Positions 28,904 to 60,185 of a stretch of 64,000 nucleotides of DNA are shown here, piece by piece. Below the pieces are notes generated by a model. The model was not told where the DNA came from, did no database searches, and saw nothing but the letters and a program-made list of their open reading frames with translations. The stretch lies in assembly GCF_030684315.1 (NCBI RefSeq), contig NC_081387.1, forward strand, positions 23,058,647 to 23,122,646, written 5' to 3'. Origin of the DNA: Stegostoma tigrinum. Its lineage: Eukaryota. The position numbers and the translations under genes were made by a program. How positions within the stretch are numbered: the stretch's first letter is position 1; every line of letters begins with the position of its first letter.

Positions 28904-28991
28904 ATGAGATCCTTCAATCACTTCTTGCCCATGATGCAAGGAAGACATTTGAGTATTGTGCTGCTCCTTGGTTTTCACACTGTGCTGTCAG
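28904..28991 (+). CDS. BTN-like signal peptide exon (MRSFNHFLPMMQGRHLSIVLLLGFHTVLS)
   Basis: Acceptor ttttttgtttcag directly before ATG, hydrophobic core LSIVLLLGF, donor G|gtaagc in phase 1 matching the IgV exon. The start could instead be the ATG at 28931 or 28934. Confidence 0.8.
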
Positions 28992-37900: not shown

Positions 37901-40900
37901 ACATCAGAAAGTGGGCTTCAGACTTACGATCCTCACCAAGTACATTGATATCATGGAGAACAAGAAGGAGAACAAGCACTGCTTCAGGATTTGAACCAGT
38001 AAATAATGCGACAAGGTGATATTGAAGATTCATTGTTGAAATTTATTGCGGAAGGAGTCCATTCAGTCCCTTGAGTCCACTCCATCCCTGTAACCCTGCA
38101 TTTCCCATGGCTAAAGCACCTATCCTGCACAGAACACCTGGAGGAAACCCTTGCAGACATAGGGAGAATGTGTAAACTCCATACACAGTCACCTGAGGAT
38201 GGAATTGAACTTAGGTCTCTGGCACTGTAAGCTAGCAGTGTTGACTATTGTGCCACCGTGCTGACCAAACTGCTTGATAAGGAAGCAACCCTTCGCTGTC
38301 CCTGCTGTATTGCTGTTTGGGGAAGCTGGGCTCGCTGGGGTTGCCATACCTATACTGGGCAGCTGAAACATTGTTGTGTCTGTGATAAATCCAGTCATGG
38401 TGCAGCTAACTACTGCATCACATGGACGTTCTGCAGGTCAGAAGGCCATCAACCAAAGGACTGCAGCCTGTATATTGGCCACTTCTCCAAGACCTGCCTA
38501 AAACACTGCGTCTGTTTTGCACAAGTCGCAAGAGAAAAGGAATATAGATACAAGGGCTCCTAGAGGCTGACAGCAGGGAATCTCTGTGTGCATCAGTCAT
38601 CTCTCAGTAAAGCCCAGCTCCAGGAGCAGGGAATCCCTCAGTAAAGCCCATCTCCGGGAGCAGGGAATCCCTCAGTAAATCCCAGCTGCAGGATCAGGGA
38701 ATCCTTCAGTAAACCCCAGCTCTGGGATGAGGGTATTTCTCAGTAAACCCAGCTCTGGGATTAGGGAATCTCTCAGTAAACCCCAGCGCCGGGAGCCGGG
38801 AATCTCTCAATAAACCCAGCTCCAGGATTAGGGAATCTCTCAGTAAACCTCAGCTCCAGGAACAGGGACTCTCTCAGTAAATCCCAGCTCCGGGATTAGA
38901 GAATCTCTCAGTAAACCCCAGCTCTGGGAGCAGGGAATCTCTTGATACATAATAATCCATCCAGCAGAACAGTGCTATCTGTGTATCCTAGGAGGAATTA
39001 GAGACGGGTTGTGGAAAAATACAAGAGGAAGCTGTCGAAAGATGGTCAGTGGTGAGGAGAGTTTCCGGAAAGAGCTTAGCAATACTGGGGGATGATGTTT
39101 TTGGCGTTTGGCTGTGTGATCATGGATTGTAGCTGAATGGCACATCCTCTGCCTATCGGAGGCGATTCCACTACACACCCTTTGGGCTGTGTTTCTGGAT
39201 GTGTTTGATATTATCAGAAATGGAACTGAAAACAATAACATCACAGCGGCAGATGTTGATGAAGGGATTCAGTGAAGTTGAGATGAAGGAGTCGAGAAAG
39301 ATTGAGAATAGGATAAAGGATCTGATTCAGATTCATTGTTATCCTTCTGGCTGAGAAACAGGGGACAGGCCTGGTGGTGTTGACATTGGCCATTTTAACA
39401 TTATCACCAACAGTTAAATTATTCACACAGGCAAGGCAAGGATAGTTCTATATTAATGCACAGAACAGTACAGTGCAGGAACAGACCCTTCGGCCCACTA
39501 TGTCTGTGCTGACCATAATGCCACTCTAAACTAATCGTATCTGCCTGCACGTGGTCCATTTCCCTCTACTCCCTGCTTGTCCATGTGTCTGTCTGAACCC
39601 CTCCAAAAAGTTGCTATTTTGTCTAAGCATCTGCTTCTATCACCTCCCCTGGCAGCACAGTAACCTCCCACCCTCTTTGTAACAAATATGCCTCACACAT
39701 CTCCTTTAAACTTTCCCCCTTCACCCTGAAGCTATGTCCCCTAGCATTTGACATTTCCAACCTGGGAAAATGACTCCAACTACCCACTTTATCCATGCCT
39801 CTCATAGTTTATCTACTTCTATCAGGTCTCCCGTCAGTTCTGATGCTCTACTGAAAATATTCCAAGTTTGTCCAACGTCTGTTTATTGCTAATACACACC
39901 AATCCAAGCAAAATGCTGGAAAACATTTTTTGCATCCTGTTCAAAAACACATCCTTCCTAACGTAGGACAACCAGAACTGCCCATTATACAACTGAGTTT
40001 CATGAGTGTTAGGACATTGTTGTTCTGTGTAGAAATCTAGGCTGTAAACTCATCTGCCTTACCTGTTAAACTGCTTGCATTAACATTAATACTATTAAGA
40101 TCACCAGTCCCGCTGTGTTCATTAACCTGATCCTGCCTGCTCTTCCAATGAGACTGATGACTTAACCTCTACCTCTTCCGCAATCACTCCACATGGTGAC
40201 CTACTGCCCACCCTCTGCCCCTCACCCCGCCACACTGGACTGAAATGACTACGTACTGTTGAAATTAAACATTTAATAATTTAAAATGAATATAAGTTTG
40301 AATAAGTGACTTTATGCTAATTGCAGAGTTTGGACAGCGGCCTTGGGTTGATGTGGAGGAGAACAACAAAGGACTTTGTGTTGTGTGTCGATCAGACGGA
40401 TGGTATCCTGAGCCACTGATACAGTGGGTAGATGGGAAAGGAGATGCGACAGTACAGTCTGAAACAGAATTCATTCAGGACCCCACAGGCCTCATCACTG
40501 TCCAGAGTCGTATTAATGTCCAAAGTGATTCTGTGAACAAGTTTTCATGTTTCATAGAAAACCAGTTATTGAGCAAAAGACGAGAGGCCCATCTCCAGAT
40601 ATCAGGTAGGTGTGTGTTTGGTAATCATTTGATGGGCGATATTTCTCCCCCCCCCCCCCCCTCCCCACCCCTGAAGACACTAACTCAGACTGGGTGTGAA
40701 TCCACGAGCACTGATTTGTCTCTGGACAATACCAAGAGGCAGCTTTTCATATTTGAAGCTGAAACATTGAGAAGTGAGTAGACTATCCACAGCACAGCTT
40801 CAGCTGGGCCTGATGTGTACTTACCCAATGTCCACATTTCATATTCCAGCTGTGGTCACTGGATAGAGATTAGGACCAAGGACACTAAGTACTGTGCTTT

Positions 40901-43900
40901 TGGCTGACTGTTATTAAGAGAGACAAATGTTTATTCATAACAGCACCTGAAATCCAAATGAATCTCAAGTTCTTTCAACAAAAATTCTTAATAGCAATGG
41001 TATTATTTACTTGTATGTCTTGGGAAGGAATCAGTAGCTGAGATTATTCCTGAAGGTTGATGAAATTATGATACTTTGAAGAAAATCCCAAATATTTGTT
41101 TCATAGGTTTGTGTCTTGCAGATCAAATACTGATTCTGTTCTTTTTAATCTTAGATGAGTTCTTCCCCAGAGTCAATGCTTGGCTTGTATGTTTCTTGGT
41201 GTTTCTTGGCCTTGTGATTGCGGCTATTACTATTGATGTAATAGTCCACAGAAAAGAAGATGAAAAGATTAAAGGTAGGAGCAAAATAGACATTTAAAGC
41301 TTGACATTTGTGGACGTACATTAAGGTTGAAATGAATTATAATTGTAACAGTTTCTGAATTATCTGAAAATTATTCTGAAATGGAAAGAATGTAATATGA
41401 ATGTGAAATTTTAATTTTTTTTAGCTTTCAGGATAATCCCTTGCTTAGCATGCTGCTTCTCTGCAAAGGAAGAAAAGTTATGTTAACTATCTCTGAGACA
41501 GAATAAGCCCTTTATTAAAGTTTCATTTTGGGACATGAGACTAAATGGTTAGACCAGCATTTATTGCCCATCTCTAGTTGCAGTTGAGAAGGTGGTGTTG
41601 AGATGTTTTCATGGTCCGCTGCACTCTGTGTAATATGGGTACATTCACAGTGTTTTATTTCTGTCACAGTGTGATATAACTGAGTGGCTTCCCAGGCCAT
41701 CTCAGAAGGCAGTTCAAAGTCAAACACTTTATTATGGGCCTGTCTGACCAATTTCCTTTCCTGAAGGATATTAGTGGAACAGTCAGTAACTTCATTCCCT
41801 CCACTATCTAAACTCAAATTGTGATTCAATCAGTGGTTGACCCCTTCAAACAAATTCGCTCTGAGGATGGAGTCAGTCAGGGATGGAGTGAGAAATCTGC
41901 AGGATGTGTGTGTGTGAACTTGCTGAGCAGTGAATTGGGGAGCAAGGCATGTAGGATTGTGCGATGTACTCTGTAAATAAATGTTATTGGTTGTAATAAA
42001 TTGGGACAGCAACTCAAAATTGTCAGAAAAGTCAGATAGGTACAGCCTCCAAAGAACATGATACTTTTTGGAAAATTAATGCCGTTCAGTACAGCTACAG
42101 AAGATAGATAGGGTACGATATGTAGAAAGGTTAAGACTGTTTTACCATGTGAATGAAATGGCGCAGTAGGTGAAAGAAAGTGATTTTGTTAACTGCATAT
42201 TGGGCACAGATTCCAGTCCGATTCGAAACTTAACATCCCTGAAAGTCCCTGATATCGAAATATTTTCAAAGATTGTAGGCCTTACTCAAAGGACACTGTC
42301 ACCCTAAGCCCCCAATGTGAATTTAGAACATTACCACTTTAATTCATGGGAGAGCCCCTCATGGTAAGAATCAAGGAGATTATGGAGCATTGTGATTTTG
42401 GACCAACTTTAAATAGGAGATTGCCATGCAATCATCCAAAAGAAGCTTAGTAAAAATTGTAAATGGATTTTAGAAGGTTGCTGGAGATTAGTTTAGGCAT
42501 GGAGAGTGTGGAGAAGGGCGAGCAGGAGATACAAAGTGCTTTGAGAAGCACAGCCCACCAGTTCGGATGGGAAACTGCAAGCAACAGTGGTGGTGTCCGG
42601 AGTGAAGGTGCTGGTGAAAGCAGGGAATGGATCCAGGAACCGGAATAGCCAGAGTGTACAGAAGGTTAAACCAACAGCCTTGGACAGGCCCTGAGGGTGC
42701 AGAGTGTTTCCAGTGTGGGGGAGGCCAACCTCCATAGCAGTGTTTTCAAGAAGGAGCTCACCTTCTGATGTTGAAGAGCACTGGGACCAGGCTGACGACA
42801 TGTGTAGGTTGGGGGTGAGCAGTGGCTGGTGGGCATTTACATGAATAGGCTCAACAGTGGCTCCAGTGAGGTACTGTCAGCAATGCCCTCAGCCCAGTGT
42901 CTGGTCAGGGCCCATGTTTAATGTGGTGTGATTAGCTCCAAGAGATCAAATTAAATTAACCAGAGACTTTTAGCATCAGAGAGGGTGAAGGGGGTCACAC
43001 AATCCAGAAGCTATCCCTAGGTTTTTCAGAGTTAGGCCTGTGCTCTGTGTGTTATTGGAGAAGTTGGAGATGGAGTTGGAGAGAATGAAAAGACCTTGGC
43101 ATCATTCACCCTGTGTGATTTTCTGAATGGGCAGCACCCATTGTGCCAGGAGTGTAACTGGATAAGTTCATTCCCATCTGTGGGGATCACAAGCTGGTGG
43201 CTATGATGTGGCTGGATAAGCATCTCGTTTCCAACAGGAAGATCGATATGGGAACGCAGCTGGGGCGGGGGGTGGGGGTGGTCAGACATTCTCAGAGTTG
43301 GACATGACTCATGCCGAGCAGCAGCTGGAGCTGTCAGAGCCTCACGGGAATATGTGACTATTAACACCCACAAGGAGTTGTATCAATTTACTCACTTGTA
43401 CTGTCTTCCAAAGAACCACGGAGAGCTTACTGCAAGACTTGCCAGTTATTGTTGTGTCTTGGATAATGTATCAACTAACCTCTTGTAAAAGAGCATTTGT
43501 TGATTTTGGGAGAAATATGAAGGAGTTCCCAGGAAGCAGGAGTGGACCTTAATAGAGAAGCACCTTCCAGGTTAATGAGGTGGTTTGCTTGGGTTATCAG
43601 GTGGATGCACAGGGTTTGCACCCCCATGGAGGACAAGGTGAGAACAATCAGGGAGACACTGGCCCCTCGGAATATCTCTGAACTCAAAACCTTTCTAGGA
43701 ATGGTTAAGTCCTGTGGGTGATTCCTCCCAAGCCTTTCCACAATGTTAGCGCCACGACAAAAATAACGAAAGAAACAACAGGGCCTGGGTCGGACCACAA
43801 ACTGAGGCTTTTAAACAGGTCCAGAAGGTGCTTCAATTATTGTGTTTCCTGGTTTGCTTCAACCAGCAAGATATTACTGACATCCTCATATGGTGTTGGG

Positions 43901-46900
43901 GCAGTTTTATCCCACACAATGGATAATGGGGCAGATAGACCTGTGGGAAATGCAGCAAAAATACTGTCGGACGCAGAGAAGAGCTATTTGTGAATAAGAG
44001 AGACGACAGAGCAGTTATTTGTGGCAACAAAATGTTCCACCAATATCGAGACTGGAGACATTTCATCATGTGGTGACAGACCACAAGCCACTGTTGGGAA
44101 TATAAGGTGATTTGACCAATAGCTTTGGCCTTTGAACATTGTCCTGAGACCTCAATAGCCAATGCTGATGCCCTCATCATGTTCCCTGACCAGAGATAGG
44201 CACAGGCCCCACAGTGTCGGAAGAGATGGGAATGGCCATGAATTTTCAAACTACTTCATCTGTTTTAGCTCAACAAAGTAAGTACTGGGCTAACAGAGAC
44301 CCACAATTCTCAAAGGAGAAGCAGATAATAGTGTGTGGCTGGCAAAACAAAAGATTTTTTAAAAGAAATTAAACCTTACAAGTTGGGGAAAAGTGAGCTT
44401 CGTTGTGAGCATGGTATTGTCCTTTGGGGATTGAAGGCTTTTATTCTTGGGTCGGAAGAAATTTGTTCCTGAAATATTTACAAAAGACGTATCCGGGTGT
44501 ATTTAAAATGAATAAAATGGTTTCAGGAAGCTCTGTTGGCAGTCTAGCATTGAAGCAGCAGTTAAAGATGCGGTAAAGTGCTGTGATCAGTGCTAATTTC
44601 AGCAGACGTTACCCGTCCCAAGCCCACAATTGTGAGGTGAGTGACAGTCCTTGATATCAAGGCTGCATTCGACCAAGTGTGGCATCGGGCTGCTGTCACA
44701 AAATTGGAATCAATGGGCAAACTGACTGCTGATTGGAGTCATACCTGACGCATAGGAAGATGGTCATGGTTTGTGGAGGTCAGTCAGTTCCAGAACATTT
44801 CTGCAGGATTTCCTGAAGGTAGTGTCCTTGACCCAACCATTTTCAACTGCTGCATCAATGATCAAGCAATTGACCAGAGGAGATCCAATCAGTGATGAAT
44901 ATTGTTGAAATAGCAAGGCCTTATGAATTGGAAAGATTAAAATCCATATGTCCAAGTGATAAAGCATGGATAAAGAGGACAGCTAAACAACTGAAGATCA
45001 TGAATATGTACCAGAAATATAATCCCATCACTGCCTATGTTTCACCCCAATGTGCATTAAGTGATGTATTTAACTGAACAGTTTTGTTGAAATTATATCA
45101 TGATGAGAACGTCTAGTGAAAGATGAAAAACATCATTTGTAAATTCTGACAGATCTTCAGATTGAGATTTAGAATGTTAAAATGTTGTTCTGATCCCAGC
45201 TGATGGTTTTCTGGACAAGTCTGAACTGTGTTCTGTTTGTGTCCCGATGTTGCTGCTATCGGGTGCGGCGGTAGCTGCAGAATCTCACTCACTAACACGT
45301 TCCTGTGTTCTTGTCTTTCAGAACTACAGGAATTCCTCACTTTGGAAGGTAAGTTATTTCAGAACCATGTCAGGATTCTGATTTACAGACACTGAGTAAG
45401 AAAATTCCAGTTTCACTTCATGGGAATCCAGGAATTCTGAACAAAGAGGATGGAATTTTATAAGGGTCTGAGCGCTGTGGTCTGTGGTGAGAAATTGATG
45501 GAATTGTGTGAGGTGTCCATTGAGACCCATTTCAATGTCACTGCCTGGCATTGAGGTGGGATTCTCACAAAGCTGCAATGTGTGTTGCCTATGAAAGGGG
45601 AATATTGCGAATGAACGACCATATTAACTGCATACCTCACCTCATTAATATACAGCCTTCTATCGCACCAAACCTGTCAGACAGGCAGGATACTGAGAAT
45701 TCTCGACATGGAGATCCAAACATGTACCTGCTGACTTCAGCTCACTGCTCACTCCAAAGGGATCTCAATGTTGGAAATTAGACACCAACCTCTCAGGGCA
45801 TGCCGCATGTAACCCATGTCCATGGACATTGGCATCCAACATGTGCCAGCCTTGAAATACCCTCATGGCACATCTCCAAACATTGTAAAACTGCTGCTTG
45901 GACACTGTCCACTCAGAGGCACACACCCAGCTCATGGACTGGGCGAAACTGCATCGCTGGGATGTTTACTTGTTCTTTTAACCCTCACTCACTCTCAGCT
46001 TATCTGGATATTAGCAGCATTCCTGCTTTTTCATTAACATTTACTCCTTGTCCCTCAGCCAGAGATACAATGCTCACAGTTCTGCTGTTTAACCGTTTAG
46101 TGGAGACACGGAGCCAAGAAGCTGGTCAGATTGTCAGCAGAACACAGTCAAGCCAAGGGAGGTAGCCTTCAGCCAGAGGATATGGTCAGTCAGTAGCATT
46201 ACCCCTCATTAGCTGTGAGGGATCAACTATCAGCTAGTACCCCACCCAGCCATATGGACACTTACTGACTAGTGGGGACTGTTTTCCTCCTGAATGGGAG
46301 AGAGGTAGTTGTTAATGGAGACGAAAGTGCTCTTACTGTTGGTGTAGGTGTGAAGGTGTCCTGAGGAAATGTGTTGGCAGCACAGAGAACAAACAGGGTT
46401 TGTGGTGTCAGGTGTTGGTGTGGGTGATGGAGAGTGAGTGAAGATGTTCCAGTCCGTGGTAAGTGTGGTAAAGCATGAGCCTTGGTGGGAGGTGGGTGCA
46501 GCAGCAGAGACAGAGTGAGTGTGTGGTCATGGAGAGAAGATGGTGGATCACATGGTGGTGGAGAGGAGAATGTCGCTGATGTGCTGGCAGTCCTCCAGAC
46601 GCTGAGACTGTACTCACCCATGTGCCACCCTCTGACCAGGCAGGGACTGGCATCATGACCATCTCGGCTGGTTCTGGGGGAAGAGGGTATCTACACCACC
46701 CCGTCCAGCGGGACCGTCCGGTTCCTCTCTGCTCCATCTGGGGAAGATGGCAGGAACTGTATGGGGCAGCTGCAGGCTGACAGACCTGTCTGGCTGCACA
46801 ACAGCTTTGCAGAGATGGCACCGCTGCCAGGGATCAGGTCAGTTCTGAGATGTCCCAGCAGTGGCGAGTTGCTTCAGAAATGGTGGGTGGTAGGATGGGG

Positions 46901-49900
46901 CTAGAACTGAATGTGAGGCTCGTAGTGACATGGTCTGTTGTTAATGGGGTGAACGACATGGAGAGAAATAGTCCATGAAACTTGATGAAACTGATTGTTA
47001 ACCAAAAAAGGTTAGATTCAGCCCAATGTTCGACAATCCGATTTGCTTTTCCCTGATTAATCTCCGTCAATGGCCGAGATGATTTCACATGCCTGTGAAC
47101 TTCACACCCTGTTATAGTTAAACAACATCCCTCAGCAGTCCTGACTGGGTGTGCAGTGAGTGAGATGTTGCTCCTTCATCTTTGGGACTGGGTGGCTTAA
47201 TGGGGCCAATCCTGTCTTTTTGCGTTTTGAAACATTTTTGTACATTGGATACAAATATGTTGTATCGCAGAACCATCAAGTTTTTTTTTGTTTATCATTC
47301 TCCAATATTATGAAATGCTCTTTCACTGTTAGCTGTTGATTATCACGTGATTAGATATGGTCCTTTTCTGGTGCAGATAGTTTGATACAGTGCTTCTTTA
47401 ATTAAAATTTTTGTTATCTTTATGTCATTATTCTTTACTATTTCTTGAAAGATATGCTTCGAGTGAGAGGACAGAATACAGAATGAAAGAGCGCAATGTC
47501 CTGGATCAGTGAAAACAACAAACTAATTTCATCATTATTCTGTAATCTTTAATCTCTTGTATCATTTTATTTACTTTGCATGTTTTCTCTTTTTTTAAAA
47601 CCTCTGATTTTTGTTTCTTTGGAGAATGAGTTTAGAGAGGTTTTGCTGATTGGTTACTCTGTCCAAGGTAACAACTGAGCAGAATGCTACTTGATCTCAC
47701 TTCCTCCCCAGTTAGCCAATGAAAAGCAGGAAGAATCTCCACACGACAATCAGAATCTGACTGTCTGTCCAAGGGACATGTGACCACAAAGAGCCCCTTT
47801 CAAACATGCACGAAACAGGTGGAAGTAGCTTGATGGATAGGTTCGGCTGTCAGAGTTTTCAGCTCCCGATGTGTCACTGGGACAGAGTTGGAATGTAATA
47901 ATCATGGGCCGATCATGAGATAGAAATACTGTCAACACTTCCCAATATTCCAGTCCCAGTTTCCGATCAATGTCAGTCTTTACATCAATGGGATAATTAT
48001 TCTGAAATGAACAGAGCATTTGAACAAAAAGAGAACCTAAACTGCTTAGGCAGCATGTTTGGAGAGAGAAACCAAGATAATGTTTCAGGTCAGTGACCTT
48101 CGGGAAAAAGAGACGTATCAGGTCTTGAGCAAATGCTGGCCTGAGGTCAGGGGAAGGGACAGTGGGGAAGGGGGAAGTGCGAAAGGAATGAAAGGTTCAT
48201 GACAGGGTGGAAAGCAAAAGTGATTCAGTAATGAAATGGACAATGATGTAAAGCATCATTGGGATTGTGCACTGGAAAACAAGTCCCTTTATTCCTGGAG
48301 TCATCACAAATGTTCAAGATGTTTAAAAGTATGCCAAGTTCCCCAGTTTACCAATCTTTCAGACCAAGATTGATAAAAAGCACAGAACAGGTTTCTGTAC
48401 ATAAGTAAATAGACTGTAGCTGCTGGTCAAACATTCTGAACCATTGGCATGGGGGAGATGATGGCTTAGTGGCAGTATTAGTGCACTGTTAATCCAGAGA
48501 CCCAGGAAATGTTCTGGGGACCCAGGTTTGAATCCCACCAGACTGTGGATGGTGGCAGATGGTGGGGCTTGAATGCAATAAAAAAAATCTGAAACTAAGA
48601 GTCTAATGATGTCCATGAATCCATAGTCAGAAAAACCTAGTGGGGTTTTCAGTGGGGAACATCCTAAAGGAAACTGCTTTCCTTATCCGGTCAGACCTAC
48701 AGTAACGTATTGACTCTTAACGGCTCGCTGGGCAATTAGCAATGGGCAATAAATCAGCTACACCCTCATCCCATGAATGAATAAAAAACATGAATAGCTC
48801 AAATCGCATAATAAACTGCCTTGTATACCTTTCCTCTCTCTCCAAAAACACACAGAAAAAGAAAACATGGGTGTTCATGTTCACAGAGAGCTGCTGACTC
48901 TTGTGCTATCTGAACACTGCTCTTGATCGTCCTTCTCCAGATGCTTTCACTGGTTTGCAGGAGACCCAGATTGTACAGGTCACACTTATAAAAGATCCCT
49001 GACTTGTTTGTTAAAGCCGTAACTTACAGAAAGTGCTGAAGGAAAAATAAACAAATACTCTTCAGGCTGGAAATGAGTTTTGTTGCAGGAAACGGAGAGA
49101 ACTTCTGAGCTGATGAAGATCCGTTGATGTCTCTGTATCTTATTCAAAGTCCCAAGCTACATCTGGTTCTGCATCTTTTCCTGCTGCTTGAACCAGTGAC
49201 TGTGTAAACAGTGCTTACAGTCAGATGGTTGATCGGTGCTGCAAGAACAGTAAATGTTGGAGATCTGAAATAAAAACAGAAAGTGCTGGAGGAACTCAGC
49301 AGGTCTGGAAAAGTCTGTGGAGAGAGTGGAAAACAAAATGAATGTCACATTCATGATGACTCTTCTTCAGAATGTGTGTGTTCCATAGAATGGCAATATC
49401 AAACTCGAATGGTGCGCTTTGTCCCTCTCGACACAAACGATGCCAAACGTGCTGAATTTCGCTTATAGTTCCTGTTTTTGTATGAGATGAGACTAAAGGG
49501 AAATAGTAGGATCATCGCCAACTGCGACTGTCTAAAAAAAGTGATTTTCAATATTCTTGTTCCACACAGGTTTCAACAAACTGGAAATAAATCGTGGTAA
49601 GTACAGAACTAACATACAATTCAATAAAACTAACCTGAACTGACAATAGATATTGAAGAATACTTCTCATTGGAAATCTTATTTAACTCGGCTTTTCATT
49701 TCTGCTGAAAAATTTTATTTCATATGAACGTAGAAGTTACCAATATGTCAATATTTTGTCTTCATATCGTGCATTTCTAAATAGATTTCATGAAGCTATG
49801 TGTATTTAACCATATATTCACATTTATAATTCCATGGTACTGCAGGAATGTTTTATTTGCACAGTGTTTGTGGATTGAATTCACTGATACATTCAGGCTT

Positions 49901-52900
49901 CAGGACATGGTGAGGTCAAGACGCTGTGACATATTGGCCTTGGTTCCTGATGATGAGCTGAGTGGGTGTGGGGCAGAGGGTTCCGTCTTACCACCTCATG
50001 TTATTTGGGGTCATTGTTGTTTCTGGTTATTGTGTGGGTTGAAGTGCTCAGAGGGACAGTGCTGATCGGTTCTGTAGAATCAGACCCTTGACTGCTTGAT
50101 AGTTCCCCAGTTCATTAAATCTCCCACATACAGTCATTGCAGGTTTGCAGAGTGAGGGATGTTGTGAGGGGGCAGTATTTCACAGAGGGGAATGTATTAG
50201 TTGCAGCCAATAATAAAAGTTGTCTAAATTGTTCATTGGACAGTCCGTGTCAGCACTGAGCTGCACCCTGGAAAATTGCAGGAGGATCCCAGCTCTGCGT
50301 GATCTGCTGCTGTTCACACAGTTCAGTTCAAGGGCAGGGGATCAAATGGGCAAATGTGATAGAGGACAGTCTGAATGGAAACTTTTCCTTTTGATGTTCT
50401 GCAACTGAGTGTCAGCTTCCTCTGAATCACTGTCAGATTTTATTGCATGACTGTCAATTTCACTGGGTCAGTGTCAGTGACTCCATTTCAGTACAGTCAC
50501 ACTGCAGTCACAGTGAAAACCATGGGTTACAGTCAGTGAGGTCAGTGTAAAATACAATCAGAGGTCAAACACCAGCAGGAACTCACTCTGGGATCTCAGA
50601 TGGAGAATCTGTTCAGGACCAAACTGTCAGGAGAGTTGGTCACTGTGTAGAAATGGAAAGAAACCCTTGAATTTCTACCATTTCAGGATCTCAGAATATT
50701 CCCAAGTGTTTGCCAGGCGAGGGAGTGTTTCTGAAATGTAGACCCAGGTTTTCCATTTGTCGTGCAGGCATTATTCCAGTGTAGATGGGAGCTTGACATG
50801 AGGATTCTGCAGAATTCCCATTATAACATACTCCAAGTGAATGGCCTGGGATATTGAATTTTCCGGCCAGCAATTCATTTACCCCTGGACCCCTCCGAAA
50901 ATATCCGTTTAAATGGGGGAACTTGGTGAGTTGCACCATAATCAAGCAACTAGCTACTCAGGAAAACTTTGGACCTGGTCGATCTCCTGAGCATCTACTA
51001 ACCTGATCTCCCACCTCTCTCAGACCCTGACATGACATCACCCTGTATCGCTGTGATCTGACTGCCCCAGCCCTGGACCTGACCTCCCACCTTCACCCAC
51101 CCCACCGTGTGTCTCCTCCCCCACCCCCCGTCCCCCTCATTCCCTGCTCATTCTGGACTCGATCTGTCCTGCCCACCACAACCTACTGCAAACACTCCAC
51201 TTTCCTGGTCCCCACTACCTTGCGCTGCAGCACCCGACTTAACTGGCTCCATCACCCGATTCAGCTGGCACCCTCCCCTCACAGCACCCAAATCTTACCC
51301 CCTCAGGCAACGCTGGAGAAACTCAGCAGGTCTGGCAGCATCTGTGGGGAGAGAAACAGAATTAATGTTTCAAGTCCATTGACACTTCTTCAGAACTGAA
51401 TGATGATGGAACATGGATTCATTTTTATGCTTTTGAGAGACAGACGATGAGACAGAGGACAGATGGAATAGACACCCAGTGCAAAAGATAAGGGGGTTGT
51501 GAGACAGAAAAAAGGACGTACGAAGGATCTAAAGATATGGAGTAGGCCATTTAGCGCTGAGATGTGGAGACTGTCTTCACTCTGAGTGGACATGGTCAGA
51601 AGTCACATGACACCAAGTTATAGCCCAACAGGTTTATTTGAAATCACAAGCTTTTTGAGCACTGCCCCTTTGTCAAGGGACTTCATCTGGTGTCATGTGA
51701 TTCTGATGCTGTCCGCCCCAGTCCACCCTCCACTTCACTCCGAGTGGTGAGCCTGTGGAATTCTCTGCCACAGAAAATGGCTGAAGCCAAAACAAGTTAC
51801 TGTTTTCAAGAAGGATTTCAGTATAATTCTTAGAATTGCAGGCTCGAAGGGTATGGAGGCGGGAAGAGCAGGAGCAGGATACTCAGCAGGATGTGAGCCA
51901 TGTAAAGTGACAGACCATTCATGAATGTAAGTGGGAAGAGATTTAACAAGGATGGAGAAATAGAGTCAAGGGAAGGAAGAGATAAGTTCCATGGGGCAGG
52001 ATCAGGCTGCAATGATGGGTCTGCCAGTGCAGACCTGTTTGTGAATTTTGGGGAGGAGGTAGAAGGGAGCTGTGTGGGTTTGAGGCACAATGATTTGGGA
52101 AGCTGTGGGGGGGGCGAGGGGTTAGATTTCCAGAGGAGATGAAGTCTGTGACAATCTTAGAAACAACAGCGTGATGTTCAAAGGTGCAGGCATGATCCAG
52201 GAGAGATAGAAGAAAGTGCTGATGTCCCCCTTTCATTGATAAGATCAAATGGAGACTGACTGATTGGTTTGAGGAATATCTCCATCCTGACAGTAGGAAT
52301 GAACACAACATTTCAGTTATGACCATTTTAAAACGCACCTTGCTCTTAATGGAGCATTTCTGTCCTGGGCCTGTAGGCACAAAAACACACTCGAGAAAGA
52401 ACGCCTCATTTTCTGCTCAGGCACTATGCAGCCTCGAGACTTCAACATTGAATTCAATAACTTCATAAACTGACGTAAAACAGAGAATTGCAGATGCTGG
52501 CGATTTAAAACAAAGAGAAATTGCTGGAGAAACTGGTTTGGCAGCATCTGTGGGCAGGATCGCAGCCTGATGTTAAAAATCTACTGACTTTCGCGGCTCG
52601 CCCTGCCACTGCTCTTTCCTCGCCTTTTTATATAGCACTGCTGTCAGACAGCAGACAAACTGAGTTAGTTTTTGTCCCACACTCAGCTCCATCCTGTACA
52701 GTTTTAGTCACCTCAATCAACATCTCATTTTGTTGCTCTGGCTGAGCCAAAGCAACCTTTCACTGTTTATTCTCCTGCTCACACTCCATTCGAGCAGTAT
52801 GCCTACCTCTCACAGCAGGTAATAATCTCCATCCCATTCAGGGTGGCACTCCTCCTGCCTGGGGAAGCCTGCTTCCACCATACAGTGCCTGACTGCCCCA

Positions 52901-55900
52901 GGCAGGTTAGCACCTACTGCAAAACCCTCCTTTCAGAGGCTTTCCCATCATTGCGGAGACTCCCATTGTGCCAGCAAATTTCCAGATGATCCAAACCCCT
53001 CAATATCCCGGAATATGGAATGCCGGATACTTCTTGGGTTGTTCTTTCTTTTTGAATATTTTGAACATCACGCTGAACGCTGCTCCCAGCGGCAAAATGT
53101 TACGGTTCAATCATGGATTTAGTGGGATGTAATAAAATTAAGTGATTCAAATGAAAAAACTTATTGGTGGTAATATATATGTATGAAGTGATGATGAAAT
53201 AAATAGTAAGATCTATTAAACAGTAAATATATGTAATGTAGTAGATAAATATGTTTGTTTCTATAACAGTAAATATACATTAAGCAGTAAAGGTGAAGGG
53301 GAAGTACAACGAGATCTGGGTGTTCTTGTACATCAGTCAATGAAAGCAAGCATGCAGGTACAGCAGGCAGTGAAGAAAGCTAATGGCATTCTGGCCTTCA
53401 TAACAAGAGGAGTTGAGTATAGGAGCAAAGAGGTCCTTCTGCAGCTGGACAGGGCCCTGGTGAGAGCGCACCTGGAGTATTGTGTGCAGTTTTGGTCTCC
53501 AAATTTGAGGAAGGACATTCTTGCTATTGAGGGAGTGCAGTGTAGGTTCACGAGGTCAATTCCTGGAATGGCGGGACTATCATATGTTGAAAGATTGGAG
53601 CGACTGGGCTTGTATATACTTGAGTTTAGGAGGATGAGAGGGGATCTGATTAAGATAATTAAAGGATTGGACACTCTGGAGGCAGGAAGCACGTTTCCAC
53701 TGATGGGTGAGTCCAGAACCAGAGGACACAGTTTAAAAATAAGGGGTAGGCCATTTAGAACAGAGTTGAGGAAAAACTTCTTCACCCAGAGAGTGGTGGA
53801 TATATGGAATGCTCTGCCCCAGAAGGCAGTCGAGGCCAAGTCTCTGGATACTTTCAAGAAAGAGATAGATAGAGCTCTTAAAGATAGTGGAATCAAGGGT
53901 TATGGGGATAAGGCAGGAACAGGATACTGATTGTGGATGATCAGCCATGATCATAATGAATGGTGGTGCAGCTTGAAGGGCCGAATGGCCTACTCCAGCA
54001 CCTATTGTGTATTGTCTATAATCTAGATACGTTAGAAACACATGTAGGTTAATGCGTTATTTAAGTTAATGAGTGGATCTGTTAGCCTAAATTACTTTAG
54101 ACAAGTTTAACAATGGCTCTCACTGCCCTCCTGCCTGTCAGGGACCACATTTTACAGCGGCTGGTCTGGAGAGCCCGGGGTTCCTGGCCCCATTTGAAAT
54201 CCCAGTCCAAGCAACATTCCCTGAATAGGGCAAAGTGCCTGATGTGATGCCTGTGCTGAATCGAAGATTATGTGCCGCATCATTATTCCCTGGAACTTTC
54301 AGTACTTTCCCAGCCATTTCACTGGACAGAAAAACATCCAGGTGGCTCTGTGTGACAGCCAAGCAGGACAGTACGCACAGTCAGGGTCACATCGTCTGCT
54401 CATTCCTCAGTCAAAACAAGCTGCTTTCACATGAAGCCTGTTTCCCACATATGTTCCACTTTATTTCAATTGCTCATTGTCACGTGCACTTAACCCTTAA
54501 TGAGCTGGTTTGAAGATATTTTTAATCCTGCTACTACATTTGGTAAGTCAGGACCAGAGGGAACCCATTGCTTTGTGGGAGCAAAAAGTAGGGGGTGAGG
54601 GTAGAAATGTGGGAGATGGCCCTGTTGAATATAGTAATGGGGAATCCTCGGCTGCGGAAGAAGATGGATGTTTCTGAGGCCTCCCTGAGGAAGGTGGCAT
54701 TTTCAGACCATTGTGATGGAAGCGGAAAAACTGGGAAAATGGGAAGGAGTTCTTACAGGAAGCAGGCTGTGAGAATGTATAGACCAGGTAACTGTGGGAG
54801 TCGGTGGGTTGTTAGTGGATATTGGTGGCCAGTCTGTCCCCAGAAATGGTAACAGAGATGTCAAGGAAGGGATTGGAGAAGTCAGAGATGGATCAGATGA
54901 AGGTGAGGGCAGGATAGAAATTGGAAATGAAACTGATAAATTTTTCCAATTCAGATTAATTCCAGGGATGAAAGGGCTAACCAACAGCGAGCAGTTGAAT
55001 AACTGGGATCGTACTCACTGGAATTCGGAAGAATGGGTGGGGGGTATCTGATTGAGGGATATAAAATATTAAAGGGAGTTGATAAAGTAGACATTGAACA
55101 GACAATTCCACTTGTGGGACAGTCTCAAACACGAGGTCACAGATATAGAGTCGGGGAGGAGAAACTATATGTGAATCTGTGGAAATCACTGCCCCAGAGT
55201 ACAGTGGAGGCAGAATCAATCAACAGACTGACAAAAGAAATAGATATGTTTCTGAGGAAAAGCAGGTTAAAGGGCTGTGGGAAGCAGGTAAGGAAAGTGG
55301 AGGTGAGACCAGGATAGGATCAGCCATGACCTTGTTAAATAGGCAGCACTGCCTACTTCTGCTCCTAATTCTGATGCTCCTCTGTTGAGAATGATACCAG
55401 ACTTGAAACATGAACTCTGTTTCTCTCTCTCCACGCACTGCCAGAGCTGCTGAGTTTCTCCAGTTTTCTCTATGTTTGTTTGAGATTACCAGCATGAGTA
55501 GCATTTTGTCTTTCCCCAAATATTACATTTACCTCAGGGATTTACCCGTTCACACGAGCTGTTAAAGTAATTGTGATCCTGGACCTTTATATCACAGAAT
55601 ACAGAAACTGACTGCTGTGAGAAAGGGAGCACAATTTACCTTCCCCCGACTCTCCTGCACTTACAAGGGACTTATCAGATTTGAAATCTGACTTCACATT
55701 TAGAAAACAGAATATTGAACAGTCCAGCACAGGAACAGGCCCTTCGGCCCTCCATATCTATTGCTGACCATGGTGCCATTCTGAACTAATCCCATCTGCC
55801 TGCACATGGTTGGTATCCCCCATTTCCTGAAGGGGACCTGATCCGAATCTCCTGTCAGAATTGCACAGCTTGATCTTCAGGTAAGTAAAGGGGACAGTGT

Positions 55901-57334
55901 GTTAATCTGAGTGTGAGTGTAACTCCTCAGAAAATCCAGACCAGTGACATGATTTAGTGTTGGAAAGATGGCAATCAAACTGCACAACTCTCCCCCTCCC
56001 CTGTCCTGAACCCCCTCATCCCAGTCACATTCCTCACTGCCCCCTCAATTTCCCAATGGATCCCTGCACCACCCTCAACCCCAATATGTTCTCTCACTGT
56101 TCTAATACCCCACTGACTCCTGTCCATCTCCCCTCAGCCAGTCCCCTGTCCTGCCCTCCCCTTCACCAATACGAGAGATTACCCCCTTCCCAGTTTCCCC
56201 CACAAGATCCCTCCCACGCTTCAGATACGAAACAAGACCACTCCAATCCCAGGGAGACTCCAATCCCAGTCTTCCCATGAACCCCTCTGCTCTCCATCAG
56301 CCTGGACACCAATCCCACAGCAAACCTGCTCCCCCTTCACTTTCCCCAATCCCACACGTGACTTGCTAAGTCCTGCCCGAACCCATGACAACTTCCCAAT
56401 CCCCCAGTGAATCCCATTCCCTTACACCCCATGAGTGCCCTGCCCATTGCCCCCTGCATTACCCCTCACACTCCACCTGATGCCCCCATAAGACAACATC
56501 CCCTCCTTAGGACCTTCAGTGAGTCCCCTCACAATCCTTGATCCTCAAATAACACCCAAGCCCCTGACATCCTCACCCTCTCCCCAACAGACACACACAC
56601 ATTTCCCCCCAACTCAAACATTCCTACCAACCCCCCCCTCCTCACACATACACACAGACATGCACACGCACGCACGCACACACATATCCCCCCAACGTGA
56701 ACATTCCCACCATCCCCCTCCCTCCTATACACACAGACACTGACACATACCCACAGAGTGTCCCTAATTCCCTGTATTTTCTCTCCCAGTCTCTGTGACC
56801 CTGGATGTGGAAACAGCGTATCCTGAGCTCGAGGTGTCTGAGGATCTGAAGAGTTTGAGATGGACCGGGACCCGAAGGGATCTCCCTGACACCGGGAAGA
56901 GGTTTACACACTGGGAGTGTGCCCTGGGATCAGAGGGATTCACATCGGGGAGACATTACTGGGAGGTGGAGGTGGTGGGGAATCGGGTCTGGAGACTGGG
57001 AGTAGCCTCAGAGTCTGTGGAGAGGAAGGACTGGGTCAGACTGATCCCTGAGAATGGATTCTGGACCATTGGGCGGAAATGGGATCAGTTTTATATAAAC
57101 AACACTCAATCCCCTCTCCCTGTCGGTCAGGTCCCCGGGAAAGTGGGAGTTTATCTCAGTTATGAGTCTGGGACAGTTTCATTTTACAACGTGGACACCA
57201 AGTCCCATCTCCACACCTTCACTGGGAATAAATTCACTGGGAAACTTTATCCTTTCTTTGGGAGTTGGCATTTAAACCAGTTTCTGAGAATCTGCTCTAA
57301 GGGGCGGGGGCTCCCTGACGTCACAGTGACCTGA
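28904..57334 (+). CDS. Butyrophilin (BTN/BTNL)-like type I membrane protein, 7 coding exons: join(28904..28991,32108..32455,40327..40605,41155..41274,45322..45348,49570..49596,56790..57334), 477 aa
   Basis: Manually spliced. Domain order SP-IgV-IgC-TM-linker-B30.2 is diagnostic of butyrophilins. All junctions are GT-AG and phase 1. Exon lengths 88+348+279+120+27+27+545=1434 nt, open to TGA at 57332-57334. Further micro-exons could have been missed. Confidence 0.9.
32108..32455 (+). CDS. BTN-like IgV (B7/MOG-type) exon
   Basis: Within ORF 32086..32475: VGEDVVLDC...LEVRWF...VHLY.GGQD...YQGRTELF...GNASLKL...SDEGIYTC. Acceptor ttgccag, donor G|gttggt, 348 nt. Confidence 0.95.
34555..34846 (-). 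mobile_element. tRNA-derived SINE (HE1/V-SINE-like) nested in the Gypsy pol
   Basis: Minus: ggcagcacggtgtctcagtggttagcactgc...cccgggttcgattcc...tgtgtggactttgcac. Further copy about 38050-38262. Confidence 0.88.
37094..37239. mobile_element. Short Penelope-derived insertion inside the 3' LTR
   Basis: pLTR sequence ggcccgaaacgtcagc...gcagcatctgcagttcc flanked by cctcatagaa / cctcacagaa. Confidence 0.8.
38601..38942. repeat. Minisatellite, 10 copies of a 33-34 bp unit (CTCTCAGTAAACCCCAGCTCCGGGAGCAGGGAAT)
   Basis: Direct count of tandem units. Confidence 0.95.
39460..39990 (-). mobile_element. CR1 LINE 3' end
   Basis: Minus ORF MRGMDKV...FPRLEMSNARGHSFRVKG. Confidence 0.8.
40327..40605 (+). 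CDS. BTN-like IgC (CD80-like C2-set) exon
   Basis: Within ORF 40314..40781: G.RPWV...VCRSDGWYPEPLIQWVD...GLITVQS...FSCFIENQLL...HLQIS. Acceptor ttgcag, donor G|gtaggt, 279 nt. Confidence 0.95.
41155..41274 (+). CDS. BTN-like transmembrane exon (DEFFPRVNAWLVCFLVFLGLVIAAITIDVIVHRKEDEKIK)
   Basis: BTN-typical D.FFPR..W stalk, hydrophobic helix and charged stop-transfer segment. Acceptor ctttttaatcttag, donor G|gtagga, 120 nt. Confidence 0.92.
41850..44630 (+). mobile_element. Heavily decayed Ty3/Gypsy element in the TM-to-linker intron
   Basis: gag start atgatactttttggaaaatta; RT remnants gtgactattaacacccacaaggagttgtatcaattt (TINTHK.LYQF); RNase H remnants (SSYGVGAVLSH..DNG.DRPV, TDHKPLL). Boundaries approximate. 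Confidence 0.75.
45322..45348 (+). CDS. BTN-like juxtamembrane micro-exon 1 (ELQEFLTLE)
   Basis: Polypyrimidine acceptor ttcttgtctttcag, 27 nt, perfect donor AG|gtaagt, phase 1/1, amphipathic. Confidence 0.8.
49570..49596 (+). CDS. BTN-like juxtamembrane micro-exon 2 (GFNKLEINR)
   Basis: Acceptor ttcttgttccacacag, 27 nt, donor G|gtaagt, phase 1/1. Same size and position as the pre-B30.2 exon of BTN genes. Confidence 0.8.
53290..54020 (+). mobile_element. CR1 LINE 3' part, relatively intact
   Basis: ORF 53340..53930: KKANGILAFI.RG.EYRSKEV...HLEYCVQFWSP...FFTQRVVDIWNALP. Confidence 0.93.
54530..54955 (-). mobile_element. Decayed Penelope-like RT fragment
   Basis: Degenerate similarity to 13700-14140. 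Confidence 0.55.
54965..55375 (+). mobile_element. CR1 LINE 3' fragment
   Basis: LIEGYKILKGVDKVD...TRGHRYR...NLWKSLPQSTVEAES. Confidence 0.8.
55985..56755. repeat. C-rich/CA-rich low-complexity intron segment preceding the B30.2 exon
   Basis: Strong C/A skew with (CA)n runs at about 56590-56750. Confidence 0.7.
56790..57334 (+). CDS. B30.2 (PRY-SPRY) terminal exon
   Basis: VSVTLDVETA...VSED...DLPD..KRF...LGSEGFTSGRHYWEVEV...W.LGVA...PENGFW...KVGVYL.YESG.VSFYN...HLHTF...LYPFF. Acceptor ttttctctcccag, stop TGA. Confidence 0.95.
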
Positions 57335-57569
57335 CCCTGGGGTCAGGGGTCAGAAACATACTTTGAGAACATATTGGTATAAAATATTCTTTAAAATTTA
57401 CAATTTATACTTTGTACAATCAGACTGTAAATAACTTCAATATAAATAGAAATGTCAGATGGACCTGACCTCAGGGTGAGGGACTGGGTCAGAGGTGAGG
57501 GGTCAGGGTGTTACTCAATGTGTCATTCAATTTCAAGATTATATTGTTGAAAATCACAACCAAAGTGTA

Positions 57570-57635
57570 AATAAATCAGACAGAAATGTAAATGTCAGGA
57601 TTAAAATAAAAAATAAATAAATGAATTGTGTCTCT
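57570..57635 (+). terminator. Candidate polyadenylation signals of the BTN-like gene
   Basis: AATAAA at 57570, 57605, 57612 and 57616, followed by GT/T-rich sequence, about 240-290 nt after the stop codon. Confidence 0.55.
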
Positions 57636-58376
57636 CATTCCTTCATTTACCCCCAGCTTCAGTCCCACCCTCCATCCCTTCACCTCTTTCCCAGTCTGGA
57701 TCTGGGATTTCTCTGTGTTTCCATTTCTCACTCTGCACCCAGAACATGAAAATCCTGAGGGAGAAATCCAACACTGACAGGGTGACAGAGCTGCATTTAC
57801 ATAGCGCTCTATTAAGCTGCCTGTGTCATTGGGGAAGGGAGTTACACAAGATCCACTCTCTCCCAGGATTTCCAGCATTCCCAGGATTTCACTCCAGTTC
57901 TCTCAACACAGATGCTGCCTGACCTGCTGAGAAATTGCAGCATTTTCTGTTTCTGGTGCGGACACTTCCCACCTTTTCTCCAAAATATATGTAGAGAGTA
58001 AACACATTCCCAAACAGCTCATCCCTGAAAGCTTTTTCTTTCAATTTTCAGTCAATTCACAAATTGATCGATGATCAGCGAATCTTTTTTAAAACACGGT
58101 ACAGGACCGCCACCGCCTGGCGGGACATGGTACTGCGGCTGTCAGTGGTTCAGTGACAATTACATCCAGCAGGTGGCGGTATTACACAGTGAAATCCTGG
58201 GGTTGGTGTCAAACAGAAATAACATCAGAAAATGCTGCCAATCCCCAGCAGGTCAGTCAGCATCTGTGTACAGAGAACCAGAAGGAACAGGGTTCAATAC
58301 TGGGCATGGTAGGAATCAGAAATTTAAAAAAAAAACAAGAGTCCAGTGACCCTTCTTCAGGACTGAAAGTCTTTGG

Positions 58377-59894
58377 TCAGATTGTGGGAAAGTTAGAGAT
58401 GAGTCTGAAACCCTCTTTAATTTCAGGAAGGGCTCATTCCCAGTGGGATCAGGTGGAGTTTATTCCCGCTGAAAGATCCCAATCAAATCCAAGGAGTTGA
58501 ACGGGGAGCGGCTGGGGATTGTGCAGTGAAAAGGTGAAACCTTTCTCCAGTGTCTCTGATCAGCTGCACAGAGCCTGGAGCTGGTTCCTGTCAGTATAAG
58601 GGAACAGGAGGGAGAGGCAATGTGTAACATTCACTTCTCAGGGTCAGACACAGCGACTGGAAAGGGAGGCGGAAGTGAAAAGGAGGAACAGAGTGAGGGC
58701 CATGAGATGGAACATGACCCACTGGGGTTTCTGTTTAAAGGCAAATAATTCAATCCCGGAGACAGTTGTGTGTTTTCATCCCCGGGAACAGACCTTTAAA
58801 GCAGAAAGTTAATGTTCAGCCATTCCTCCATCCACATTGATTGCAGTTTGCTGCTTTGTTTAAGTCGGGGCTTTAAAGAGAATTGATGCGCTAACTTTCC
58901 CTTCCCCTGTGTAAATATTTAATTTGTACATTTTAGAGAGATGGACAAGGGAAGCGAGGATACTGTGAGGAAAAACACTTTCACACAGCGAGTAGTTCGA
59001 GCCTGGAATGTGCTCCTGGAAATGTGGTGGAGGCAGACTCAGTTGGGGAGTTGGAAAGAGCATGGGATGGTGTTTTGGATGATAATGGTGTACAGGGATA
59101 TGGGGAAAAGGCAGGAGATTGGCCCTAGATCATAGACCCAGACACAATGTTGGAGATGGTGCAGGCACGATGGGCAGAATGGCCTCCCTCTGCATCAGCA
59201 TCATTCTGTGACTGTGTGAAATTTGAGCCGATCTATTCACACAGACCTGTGCTGTATCCAACAAGACCATCTCCGACAGCCTCGCCTTCCTCAGGGATAG
59301 CATTGCCCATGTGATGGTCAGGGGCTGTGGGCACTTGCCTCATCTGCCTGGTCCAGGAGAAAGGCCTTTGACAGAATCTCCCACAACTGACAGAGTGGAC
59401 ACACTCTGTAACATGGGGTTTGGGGGGTGGGGGGGGAAGCACTTGGATAGAACTGTCCCACACAAACAGCAGTGACCCAGTTGCCATCAGTGGGTGGGAA
59501 TCAGAAAGCTGTCCCAGCCAGGCAGGGCTGCCCTCTCTCCCCTGTCCTCCAGGTGTGTTGTGTAGGACCTTTTCCTGAATCCCATCACCCCCAGGATGGG
59601 GGGAATGTGAGGGGGGAAGGTCTCAGGTTGTGGAGGCACTGAGATGAATATCTCCTGCACGTCGACCCCATCGCTGTCTCCAGCTTGGATTCACTGTTAG
59701 TGTAAAGACTGGGTTAATATCTCTGACCAGTTCAAACTGCCCTCAGGAACCAACATGAATCAGATTAAGAACGAGGGCCATGTTCTTTGAAAACTGGCCT
59801 GATAGATCCTTGTTCTCTTCACTGACAGGACGGATGACTTGACAGTGCAGGGAATTTTGTTCTGAGGGCCTGGGGTGTGTGCTAAAACTGGGAA
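58377..59894 (+). repeat. Local segmental duplication, copy C (matches A 1727-3208; no ISRE, donor mutated GT>AT)
   Basis: Colinear match from tcagattgtgggaa to gctaaaactgggaa. Reads agagATGAGT where A and B read agagGTGAGT. Confidence 0.95.
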
Positions 59895-60185
59895 GGAACG
59901 AAGCGCTCTTAAGTTTTGCTGACATTAAGCGAGATATTGTTATCTTTGCACCATACCACAAATCACTCTATCTCTTTTCTGTATTCTGTCTCACATTGTT
60001 TGTTATCTGGCCCACAACAGTGGTGCCGCTTGTGAACGTGGACGTGGCATTTGCACGGAATTTGGCCACACAGTCACGTATGTACACGGAGTACCAGAGG
60101 GGGCAAAGCGTGCAGCCTTGCAGGGCACCAATGTTGAGGATTATTATGGAGAAGGTGCTGTTGTCCATCTTCACCAACTGCGGGG
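59895..60185 (-). mobile_element. Rex1/Babar-type LINE RT fragment
   Basis: IILNIGALQGCTLCPLWYSVYIRDCVAKF...TTVVGQITNN. Confidence 0.75.

What the first reader, a model, noticed from the sequence alone, without database searches (positions are those of the whole stretch)
55881..59894. The B30.2 exon looks TRIM-derived: possible chimeric BTN assembled by exon shuffling from a TRIM array
Seen: the B30.2 exon is preceded by an orphan perfect donor (CAG|GTAAGT, 55881) and a C-rich 0.9-kb intron-like segment compositionally unlike the other introns. About 1 kb after the stop lies a copy of the promoter-like duplication module. From recollection, not a search, the style VSVTLDVETA.P.LEVSEDLKS.RWT.T.R.LPDTGKRF and VGVYLSYESGTVSFYN is that of the expanded shark TRIM PRY-SPRY family. 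Inference: the cytoplasmic sensor exon, with its intron and 3' flank, was captured from or homogenised with a TRIM locus, coupling a B7-type ectodomain to a fast-evolving TRIM sensor domain.
Basis: inference. Interest (0 to 1): 0.75.

Follow-up and report, generated by a model that had tools for sequence, protein, structure and literature searches.

The report
Shark butyrophilins and TRIMs swap sensors
This zebra-shark butyrophilin, a cell-surface immune protein, has an inner sensor domain closer to those of a zebra-shark TRIM gene and of distantly related zebra-shark butyrophilins than to the same gene in other sharks, likely because the two gene families keep trading that one exon.

Summary
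The window holds a complete, spliced zebra-shark butyrophilin (P0032, IgV-IgC-TM-B30.2). The 55881 donor has an in-frame stop just upstream and lies inside a 7.2-kb last intron that spliced contigs skip (3 of 4 runs). The downstream module is a truncated copy of the gene's own 5' region.

The core idea holds in another form. Ectodomains follow orthology across sharks and rays, but B30.2 domains sort by lineage with butyrophilins and TRIMs mixed (BTN monophyly rejected, p-AU 4e-41). The window domain is 88% identical to a same-contig TRIM and at most 81% to orthologues. A zebra-shark duplicate is identical over the first 297 residues but differs at 16 of 168 B30.2 positions. In Chiloscyllium punctatum the orthologue's last exon product is identical to a TRIM's.

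This points to recurrent exchange, not one capture. The original direction was probably butyrophilin to TRIM. Precedents exist (zebrafish NLR-B30.2, squamate harbiTRIM locus). I found no shark report in nine library searches, and the scan had not noted it elsewhere. There is no DNA-level test, because no genome is held.

The parts
22380..23007 (+). 5' module copy 2: putative promoter and first exon (donor GT at 22636), with an ISRE-like GAAANNGAAAGT motif (motif recalled)
   Evidence: a paralogue's isoform P0341 begins with this exon's translation, one residue different
28904..28991 (+). signal-peptide exon
   Evidence: 7-exon model equals P0032
32108..32455 (+). IgV exon
   Evidence: PF07686 E 1.8e-14; joined to IgC in contig loose ends
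40327..40605 (+). IgC exon
   Evidence: PF22705 E 8e-20; joint to TM exon in 4 of 4 runs
41155..41274 (+). transmembrane exon
   Evidence: joints in 4 of 4 runs
45322..45348 (+). 27-nt juxtamembrane mini-exon 1
   Evidence: conserved in orthologues
49570..49596 (+). 27-nt juxtamembrane mini-exon 2, the true penultimate exon
   Evidence: joint to the B30.2 exon in 3 of 4 runs; conserved in orthologues
49597..56789 (+). true last intron, 7193 nt, phase 1; the inferred upstream limit of the exchanged tract lies within it
   Evidence: limit inferred
55878..55886 (+). unused donor-like CAG|GTAAGT; in-frame TGA at 55871-55873; a possible 22-nt pseudo-exon 55859-55880 would shift the frame
55990..56789 (+). 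C-rich 3' part of the last intron, origin not established
   Evidence: no other copy in the window; no Rfam match
56790..57334 (+). B30.2/PRY-SPRY exon of the type shared by elasmobranch BTNs and one class of TRIMs; the tail read in another frame gives GAGAP*, the end of paralogues P0041 and P0342
57959..58058 (-). inverted, 72%-identical piece of the module's promoter part, between an inverted repeat pair 57897-57949 / 58226-58278
58365..59897 (+). module copy 3: 5'-truncated, donor mutated, lacking the ISRE-like part

Best explanation
This is an ordinary seven-exon shark butyrophilin whose last exon, the B30.2 sensor, is likely exchanged again and again, by gene conversion or unequal crossing-over, with neighbouring butyrophilins and TRIM genes, while its ectodomain, membrane and linker exons are inherited by descent. 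Shown: the gene model and its splicing; domain trees that disagree; lineage-specific C-terminal tails shared by BTNs and TRIMs; a zebra-shark duplicate that differs only in B30.2. Inferred: the exon is swappable because both gene types enter it in phase 1 (shown for this gene; V|SVTLD at the junction in the others); tandem position on one chromosome supplies the templates; this B30.2 type began in elasmobranch BTNs, was taken up by part of one TRIM family before sharks and rays split, and has since moved both ways. Function (inferred, untested): an old B7-type ectodomain keeps its receptor while the cytoplasmic domain is given new ligand surfaces from a pool shared with E3 ligases; it is unlikely to be a BTN3A1-type phosphoantigen sensor.
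For: Ectodomain tree: the window gene lies in a 23-row orthology clade (100/97*) running from sevengill shark to skates, with its carpet-shark orthologues at 100/100*. B30.2 tree, 33 ingroup rows: lineage labels need 6 changes for 7 lineages (the minimum; shuffled 22.6; 0 of 500 as low), architecture needs 17 (shuffled 15.5; 456 of 500 as low). AU tests reject BTN monophyly (p 3.7e-41), the orthologue clade (5e-6) and zebra+bamboo orthologues (2e-43). Repeated on 26 rows found only by ectodomain or RING queries: lineage 4 changes (minimum 3; 0 of 500), architecture 7 (206 of 500), p-AU 3e-63. In 27 of 34 BTNs of ectodomain clades 1 and 2 the best same-lineage TRIM beats the best orthologue; 0 of 9 testable in clade 4, an internal control. 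P0032 and P0342 share 297 of 297 N-terminal residues but 152 of 168 B30.2 positions. Tails: TEGAG in 5 zebra-shark BTNs and the TRIM, RISC* in bamboo sharks, SGSAPGV in skates. C. punctatum BTN P0123 and TRIM P0344 are identical over 184 residues, and their unusual long tail also occurs in a Hemiscyllium TRIM but not in the Hemiscyllium BTN orthologue. Direction: this B30.2 type forms a clade with all four BTN ectodomain clades (100/99*); the other TRIM type groups with chimaera TRIMs (100/97*); one TRIM clade is rejected (p 9e-35); one RBCC family carries both types; PDB best hits are BTN3A for the window domain (151 bits against 123 for TRIM21) but TRIM21 for the other type (181 against 170).
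Against: All comparisons are at protein level on NCBI gene models; there is no synonymous-site, intron or flank test. Only one intact-looking zebra-shark TRIM of this type (P0040, itself an irregular model) was retrieved, and the window domain is nearer to two BTNs (92%, 90%) than to it (88%). A PHI-like test on 8 zebra-shark copies found 176 of 351 site pairs incompatible but no fall-off with distance (p 0.07-0.54), so tracts inside the exon are not shown. 7 of 34 clade 1 and 2 BTNs do not follow the pattern. In catsharks and Heterodontus the BTN tails differ from the TRIM tails. The deep root rests on few bony-vertebrate rows with weak support (89/65), and no mammalian TRIM was in the trees. 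The 101-row careful tree did not finish; the quick tree was used.
Confidence: 0.7

Rival explanations
1. Splice capture: the BTN's upstream exons splice onto the last exon of the TRIM lying downstream; later deletion of the TRIM's own exons and of the old BTN exon leaves a BTN with a TRIM last exon, TRIM last intron and an orphan donor.
For: C. punctatum XP_072406079-82 (BTN isoforms X1 488 aa, X2 483 aa) and XP_072406083 (TRIM 'isoform X3' 481 aa) have consecutive accessions and an identical last-exon product, including a residue that the four other TRIMs of that cluster lack; I read this as one NCBI gene with a shared exon. The donor-like site sits about 100 nt before the C-rich stretch.
Against: No TRIM remnant in the window's last intron; the 50 nt before the donor do not resemble TRIM penultimate exons; only 1 species gave a BTN-TRIM pair above 92%; it does not explain BTN-to-BTN sharing; the shared exon may be a Gnomon read-through model.
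Confidence: 0.15
2. One-off exon shuffling that built a chimeric BTN from a TRIM B30.2 with its intron and 3' flank.
For: 88% identity to same-contig TRIM P0040 and a shared read-through tail ending LPD-T-T.
Against: All clade-1 orthologues have the same layout; the pattern recurs in at least 7 lineages and 2 ectodomain clades; the domain type is nested among BTNs; the donor is unused.
Confidence: 0.05
3. Protein-level convergence: shared ligands drive BTN and TRIM B30.2 domains of one species to look alike without DNA exchange.
For: Variation is concentrated at a few loop positions, with heavy homoplasy and no distance effect.
Against: Shared tails and frame-shifted stops beyond the domain are lineage-specific; about 120 of 168 columns are invariant across 8 zebra-shark copies whose ectodomains share only 41-53%.
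Confidence: 0.04
4. Assembly or annotation artefact: collapsed repeats or mis-joined exons attach look-alike B30.2 exons to the wrong genes.
For: Many retrieved models are fused tandem genes; P0032 and P0342 could be falsely duplicated haplotypes.
Against: For this gene the mini-exon-to-B30.2 joint is in independent contigs (3 of 4 runs, one study; 28 letters on the short side); the copies differ by 8-18% and so are not collapsed; the pattern holds across many separate assemblies.
Confidence: 0.06

Closest known systems
Squamate harbiTRIM locus (PMC12262214 / bioRxiv 10.1101/2025.06.23.661133; section 6 and passages read; fig. S3 not seen)
   Same: TRIMs, butyrophilins and orphan PRY-SPRY genes in one unstable array, with extensive recombination reported among all PRY-SPRY domains of the locus.
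   Different: In the text I read, the focus is on TRIM clades; BTN orthology against B30.2 ancestry is not traced. It contrasts this with limited recombination among MHC-linked TRIMs. Here whole-exon homogenisation crosses BTN and TRIM in many elasmobranch lineages.
Zebrafish NLR-B30.2 family (PMC4852459, passages) and finTRIM-NLR exon shuffling (PMC2657112, passages)
   Same: Old N-terminal groups with B30.2 homogenised across groups by gene conversion; B30.2 passed between TRIM and another family.
   Different: Conversion there is within NLRs, and the TRIM-NLR transfer is an old event (55-65% similar). Here the partner is a membrane B7-family protein and identity reaches 88-100%.
Butyrophilin family, e.g. 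human BTN3A1/BTN2A1 (PMC12841164 parts 1-2 of 4; PMC7348870 passages)
   Same: IgV-IgC-TM-short heptad linker-B30.2; best solved relatives are BTN3A B30.2 domains; shark BTNs and their MHC linkage are already reported.
   Different: BTN3A concerted evolution is described for the ectodomain, the opposite end. The W350-H351-Y352 stretch aligns to H-W-E here, so the key H351 is absent.

Membership tests
Butyrophilin | IgV + IgC ectodomain | tested here: met
   PF07686 and PF22705 above cut-off
Butyrophilin | single TM and short mini-exon linker | tested here: met
   TM exon and two 27-nt phase-1 exons, spliced
Butyrophilin | C-terminal B30.2 in the same transcript | tested here: met
   PF13765 + PF00622; joint in 3 of 4 runs
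Butyrophilin | MHC linkage | not testable with these tools
   no genome held; reported for three other elasmobranchs in PMC12841164
BTN3A1-type phosphoantigen sensor | H351 and basic pocket in B30.2 | tested here: not met
   H351 aligns to W; by recalled numbering R412, R418 and R469 are also replaced, while 378 and 393 are Arg here but vary among paralogues
TRIM (class IV) | RING-B-box-coiled coil upstream of B30.2 | tested here: not met
   no such exons in the window
TRIM-derived last exon (recent donor) | B30.2 groups with same-species TRIM rather than orthologues | tested here: met
   it groups equally with same-species BTNs, so the immediate donor is unresolved
TRIM-derived last exon (recent donor) | last intron and 3' flank match a TRIM locus | not testable with these tools
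   no genome; no look-alike window
Gene-conversion array | domain trees discordant, sorted by lineage | tested here: met
Gene-conversion array | recombination tracts / low dS at DNA level | tested here: inconclusive
   protein-level PHI-like test p 0.07-0.54; DNA of paralogues not available

The most novel reading that the evidence does not exclude
Elasmobranch butyrophilins and TRIM E3 ligases draw on one shared, constantly reshuffled pool of B30.2 sensor exons, at times one physical exon spliced to either front end (C. punctatum), so the same cytoplasmic ligand, for instance a viral protein, would be both ubiquitinated by a TRIM and signalled to gamma-delta T cells through a butyrophilin.
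Probability: 0.2. Interest if true: 0.8.

Novelty: new variant of a known kind. Interest (0 to 1): 0.52.

Why it matters
What butyrophilin B30.2 domains sense outside placental mammals is open (PMC12841164). If shark BTNs keep receiving the same sensor exon as TRIM ligases, their ligands should be the TRIMs' ligands, which can be tested directly, and phosphoantigen sensing would be a later specialisation. It also means BTN or TRIM trees built on full-length or B30.2 sequences misassign orthology in cartilaginous fish.

Tried and rejected
The scan's notes gave no look-alike for the intron or protein and one note on a different gene family. Run search: no RNA holder listed; four unlabelled runs nonetheless gave GT..AG joints. 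Contig cover of the C-rich stretch in X5 and X7 was seen but not used, as contigs cannot rank parts. TRIM remnants: none; a weak E 0.46 match at 55833-55886 was rejected as chance among 5771 hits. The 22-nt pseudo-exon has no counterpart in the BTN linkers listed. Rfam 49000-60500: 0 matches. PHI-like test not significant. 66 B30.2 domains from unnamed representatives (45 TRIM-type, 21 BTN-type) added four rows, at 47-74% identity, to the shark clade, and their species are unknown. Rows dropped before counts: B30.2 pieces under 148 aa, identical rows, and for hand-picked subsets (101, 36, 26 and 31 of about 317 domains). My first exon coordinates for IgV were off by one, corrected. No structure or complex was predicted.
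Full report
Identity and gene model. The exon at 56790-57334 encodes PRY+SPRY and matches at 100% P0032, NCBI's butyrophilin 1A1-like of Stegostoma tigrinum. Seven exons (28904-28991, 32108-32455, 40327-40605, 41155-41274, 45322-45348, 49570-49596, 56790-57334), all with AG/GT ends, translate exactly to P0032. Contigs of four unlabelled runs from one study show the joints IgC-TM and TM-mini1 in 4 of 4 runs, and mini1-mini2 and mini2-B30.2 in 3 of 4. The last intron is therefore 7193 nt.

The CAG|GTAAGT is at 55878-55886, but one per window is chance-level (38 of 100 shuffles). An in-frame TGA lies 9 nt upstream, and no listed joint uses it (15 shown, 9 not). Its place just before the C-rich stretch is mildly suggestive but post hoc. 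The C-rich stretch is real (45.6% C) and unlike the gene's other introns (18-22%), though equally skewed stretches occur at 13-15 kb. It has no other copy in the window. The module at 58365-59897 is a copy of the gene's own 5' region, cut at its 5' end and with the first-exon donor mutated. No TRIM exon remnant was found. Whether intron and flank match TRIM loci could not be tested.

Domain trees. Three searches (B30.2; ectodomain; RING-B-box; best 120 rows each) gave 340 proteins. The IgV+IgC tree resolves four old elasmobranch BTN clades that broadly follow the species; the window gene is in clade 1 (23 rows, 100/97*) beside bamboo-shark orthologues. Linker mini-exons are also clade-specific. 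The B30.2 tree is different. The window domain falls in a zebra-shark cluster of 2 clade-1 BTNs, 5 clade-2 BTNs and the TRIM P0040 (SH-aLRT 99, quick tree). Comparable mixed clusters appear for Heterodontus, lamniforms, sawshark, skates, catsharks and bamboo sharks. On 33 rows lineage needs the minimum 6 changes while architecture is no better than shuffled, and AU tests reject BTN or orthologue monophyly. The result holds on 26 rows chosen without the B30.2 query. 27 of 34 clade 1 and 2 BTNs are closer to a same-lineage TRIM than to any orthologue; clade 4 (0 of 9) keeps its own B30.2, so the effect is not a method artefact.

Recent events. A second zebra-shark gene, P0342, equals P0032 over all 297 N-terminal residues and differs at 16 of 168 B30.2 positions. 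Tails past the domain are lineage-specific and shared across gene types. The window's tail read in another frame is GAGAP*, the end of P0041 and P0342, and its read-through resembles the TRIM P0040 tail. That favours DNA exchange over convergence. In C. punctatum the orthologue P0123 and the TRIM P0344 have an identical 184-residue last-exon product and accession numbers that suggest one NCBI gene. Their odd long tail is in Hemiscyllium TRIM P0282 but not in the Hemiscyllium BTN, so this event ran TRIM to BTN. It is the only species with a BTN-TRIM pair above 92%. Heterodontus BTN P0142 carries a B30.2 from the other, TRIM-like group.

Original direction. One shark RBCC family carries two B30.2 types about 50% identical, with at least 3 switches forced. 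The window's type forms a clade with all four BTN clades (100/99*), the other groups with chimaera TRIMs (100/97*), and a single TRIM clade is rejected. PDB scores agree. The root is weakly supported, so this is likely, not shown.

Function. Variable columns among the 8 zebra-shark copies cluster at positions 40-42, 64-70, 81-85, 94-99 and 160-165. Several align to the BTN3A1 ligand face (W350, H351, Y352 and W391 from PMC7348870, the other numbers recalled). H351 is W here. I infer a fast-changing protein-binding surface under an old ectodomain. No ligand was tested.

Against. Everything rests on predicted proteins; only one zebra-shark TRIM of this type was retrieved; the nearest neighbours of the window domain are BTNs (92%, 90%) ahead of the TRIM (88%); the recombination test was not significant; 7 of 34 BTNs are exceptions.

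Literature. Ig+SPRY is listed as a gnathostome domain-shuffling product (PMC11788884, passages). Shark BTNs and their MHC linkage are reported (PMC12841164, parts 1-2 of 4; its tree is a supplement I did not see). B30.2 shuffling and conversion are known for finTRIM/NLR (PMC2657112, PMC4852459, PMC3137616; passages) and for the squamate harbiTRIM locus, which includes BTNs (PMC12262214 section 6 and passages, and its later version). PMC10445537 (passages) notes BTN-TRIM C-terminal likeness. PMC8813856 (passages) gave background only. Nine searches listed no paper on BTN-TRIM B30.2 exchange in cartilaginous fish. The library lacks most subscription papers. A 2022 Immunogenetics paper on B30.2-associated families in fish (recalled, not read; one search listed only other papers holding the phrase) may touch on it.

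Verdict. The gene is a normal butyrophilin and the cited intron evidence does not stand, but ongoing last-exon exchange between BTNs and TRIMs across elasmobranchs is well supported at protein level. New variant of a known kind; interest 0.52.

Noticed in passing
P0123/P0343/P0344 (C. punctatum XP_072406079-83): BTN and TRIM isoforms apparently annotated as one gene with one shared last exon.
   Followed up: partly
window 236-3211, 21376-23007, 58365-59897, 63650-64000: Four partial copies of one 5' module; copies 1 and 2 keep a first-exon donor and an ISRE-like motif (recalled), and may be alternative promoters (P0032 has at least 4 transcripts). The copy at 63.6 kb may begin the next gene.
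   Followed up: partly
window 57897-58278: Inverted repeat pair enclosing an inverted, 72%-identical piece of the module's promoter part, which abuts in module coordinates the start of copy 3; possibly an old inversion.
   Followed up: no
window 25532-25584: Likely non-coding 5' exon ending at an AG|GTAAGT donor (25583-25590).
   Followed up: no
P0032 vs P0341/P0342: A duplicate with identical ectodomain, TM and linker but a different B30.2; could also be a divergent haplotype.
   Followed up: partly
P0072.1/.2 (gar), P0169 with P0446: BTN and TRIM B30.2 domains are also sisters in some bony-vertebrate rows, so the exchange may be wider than sharks.
   Followed up: no
P0256, P0311, P0086, P0117: TRIMs whose B30.2 type disagrees with their RBCC neighbours, i.e. 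switches between the two types.
   Followed up: no
window 13100-15150: Strongly G-rich then C-rich inverted segments with retroelement-like reading frames.
   Followed up: no
window 38599-38942: 34-bp minisatellite, 10.2 copies, in the IgV-IgC intron.
   Followed up: no
window 20748-21181: Assembly gap of 434 N next to module copy 2.
   Followed up: no
window 40447 and 40521: Two IgC-exon differences at high share in all four contig sets: alleles or the duplicate gene.
   Followed up: no
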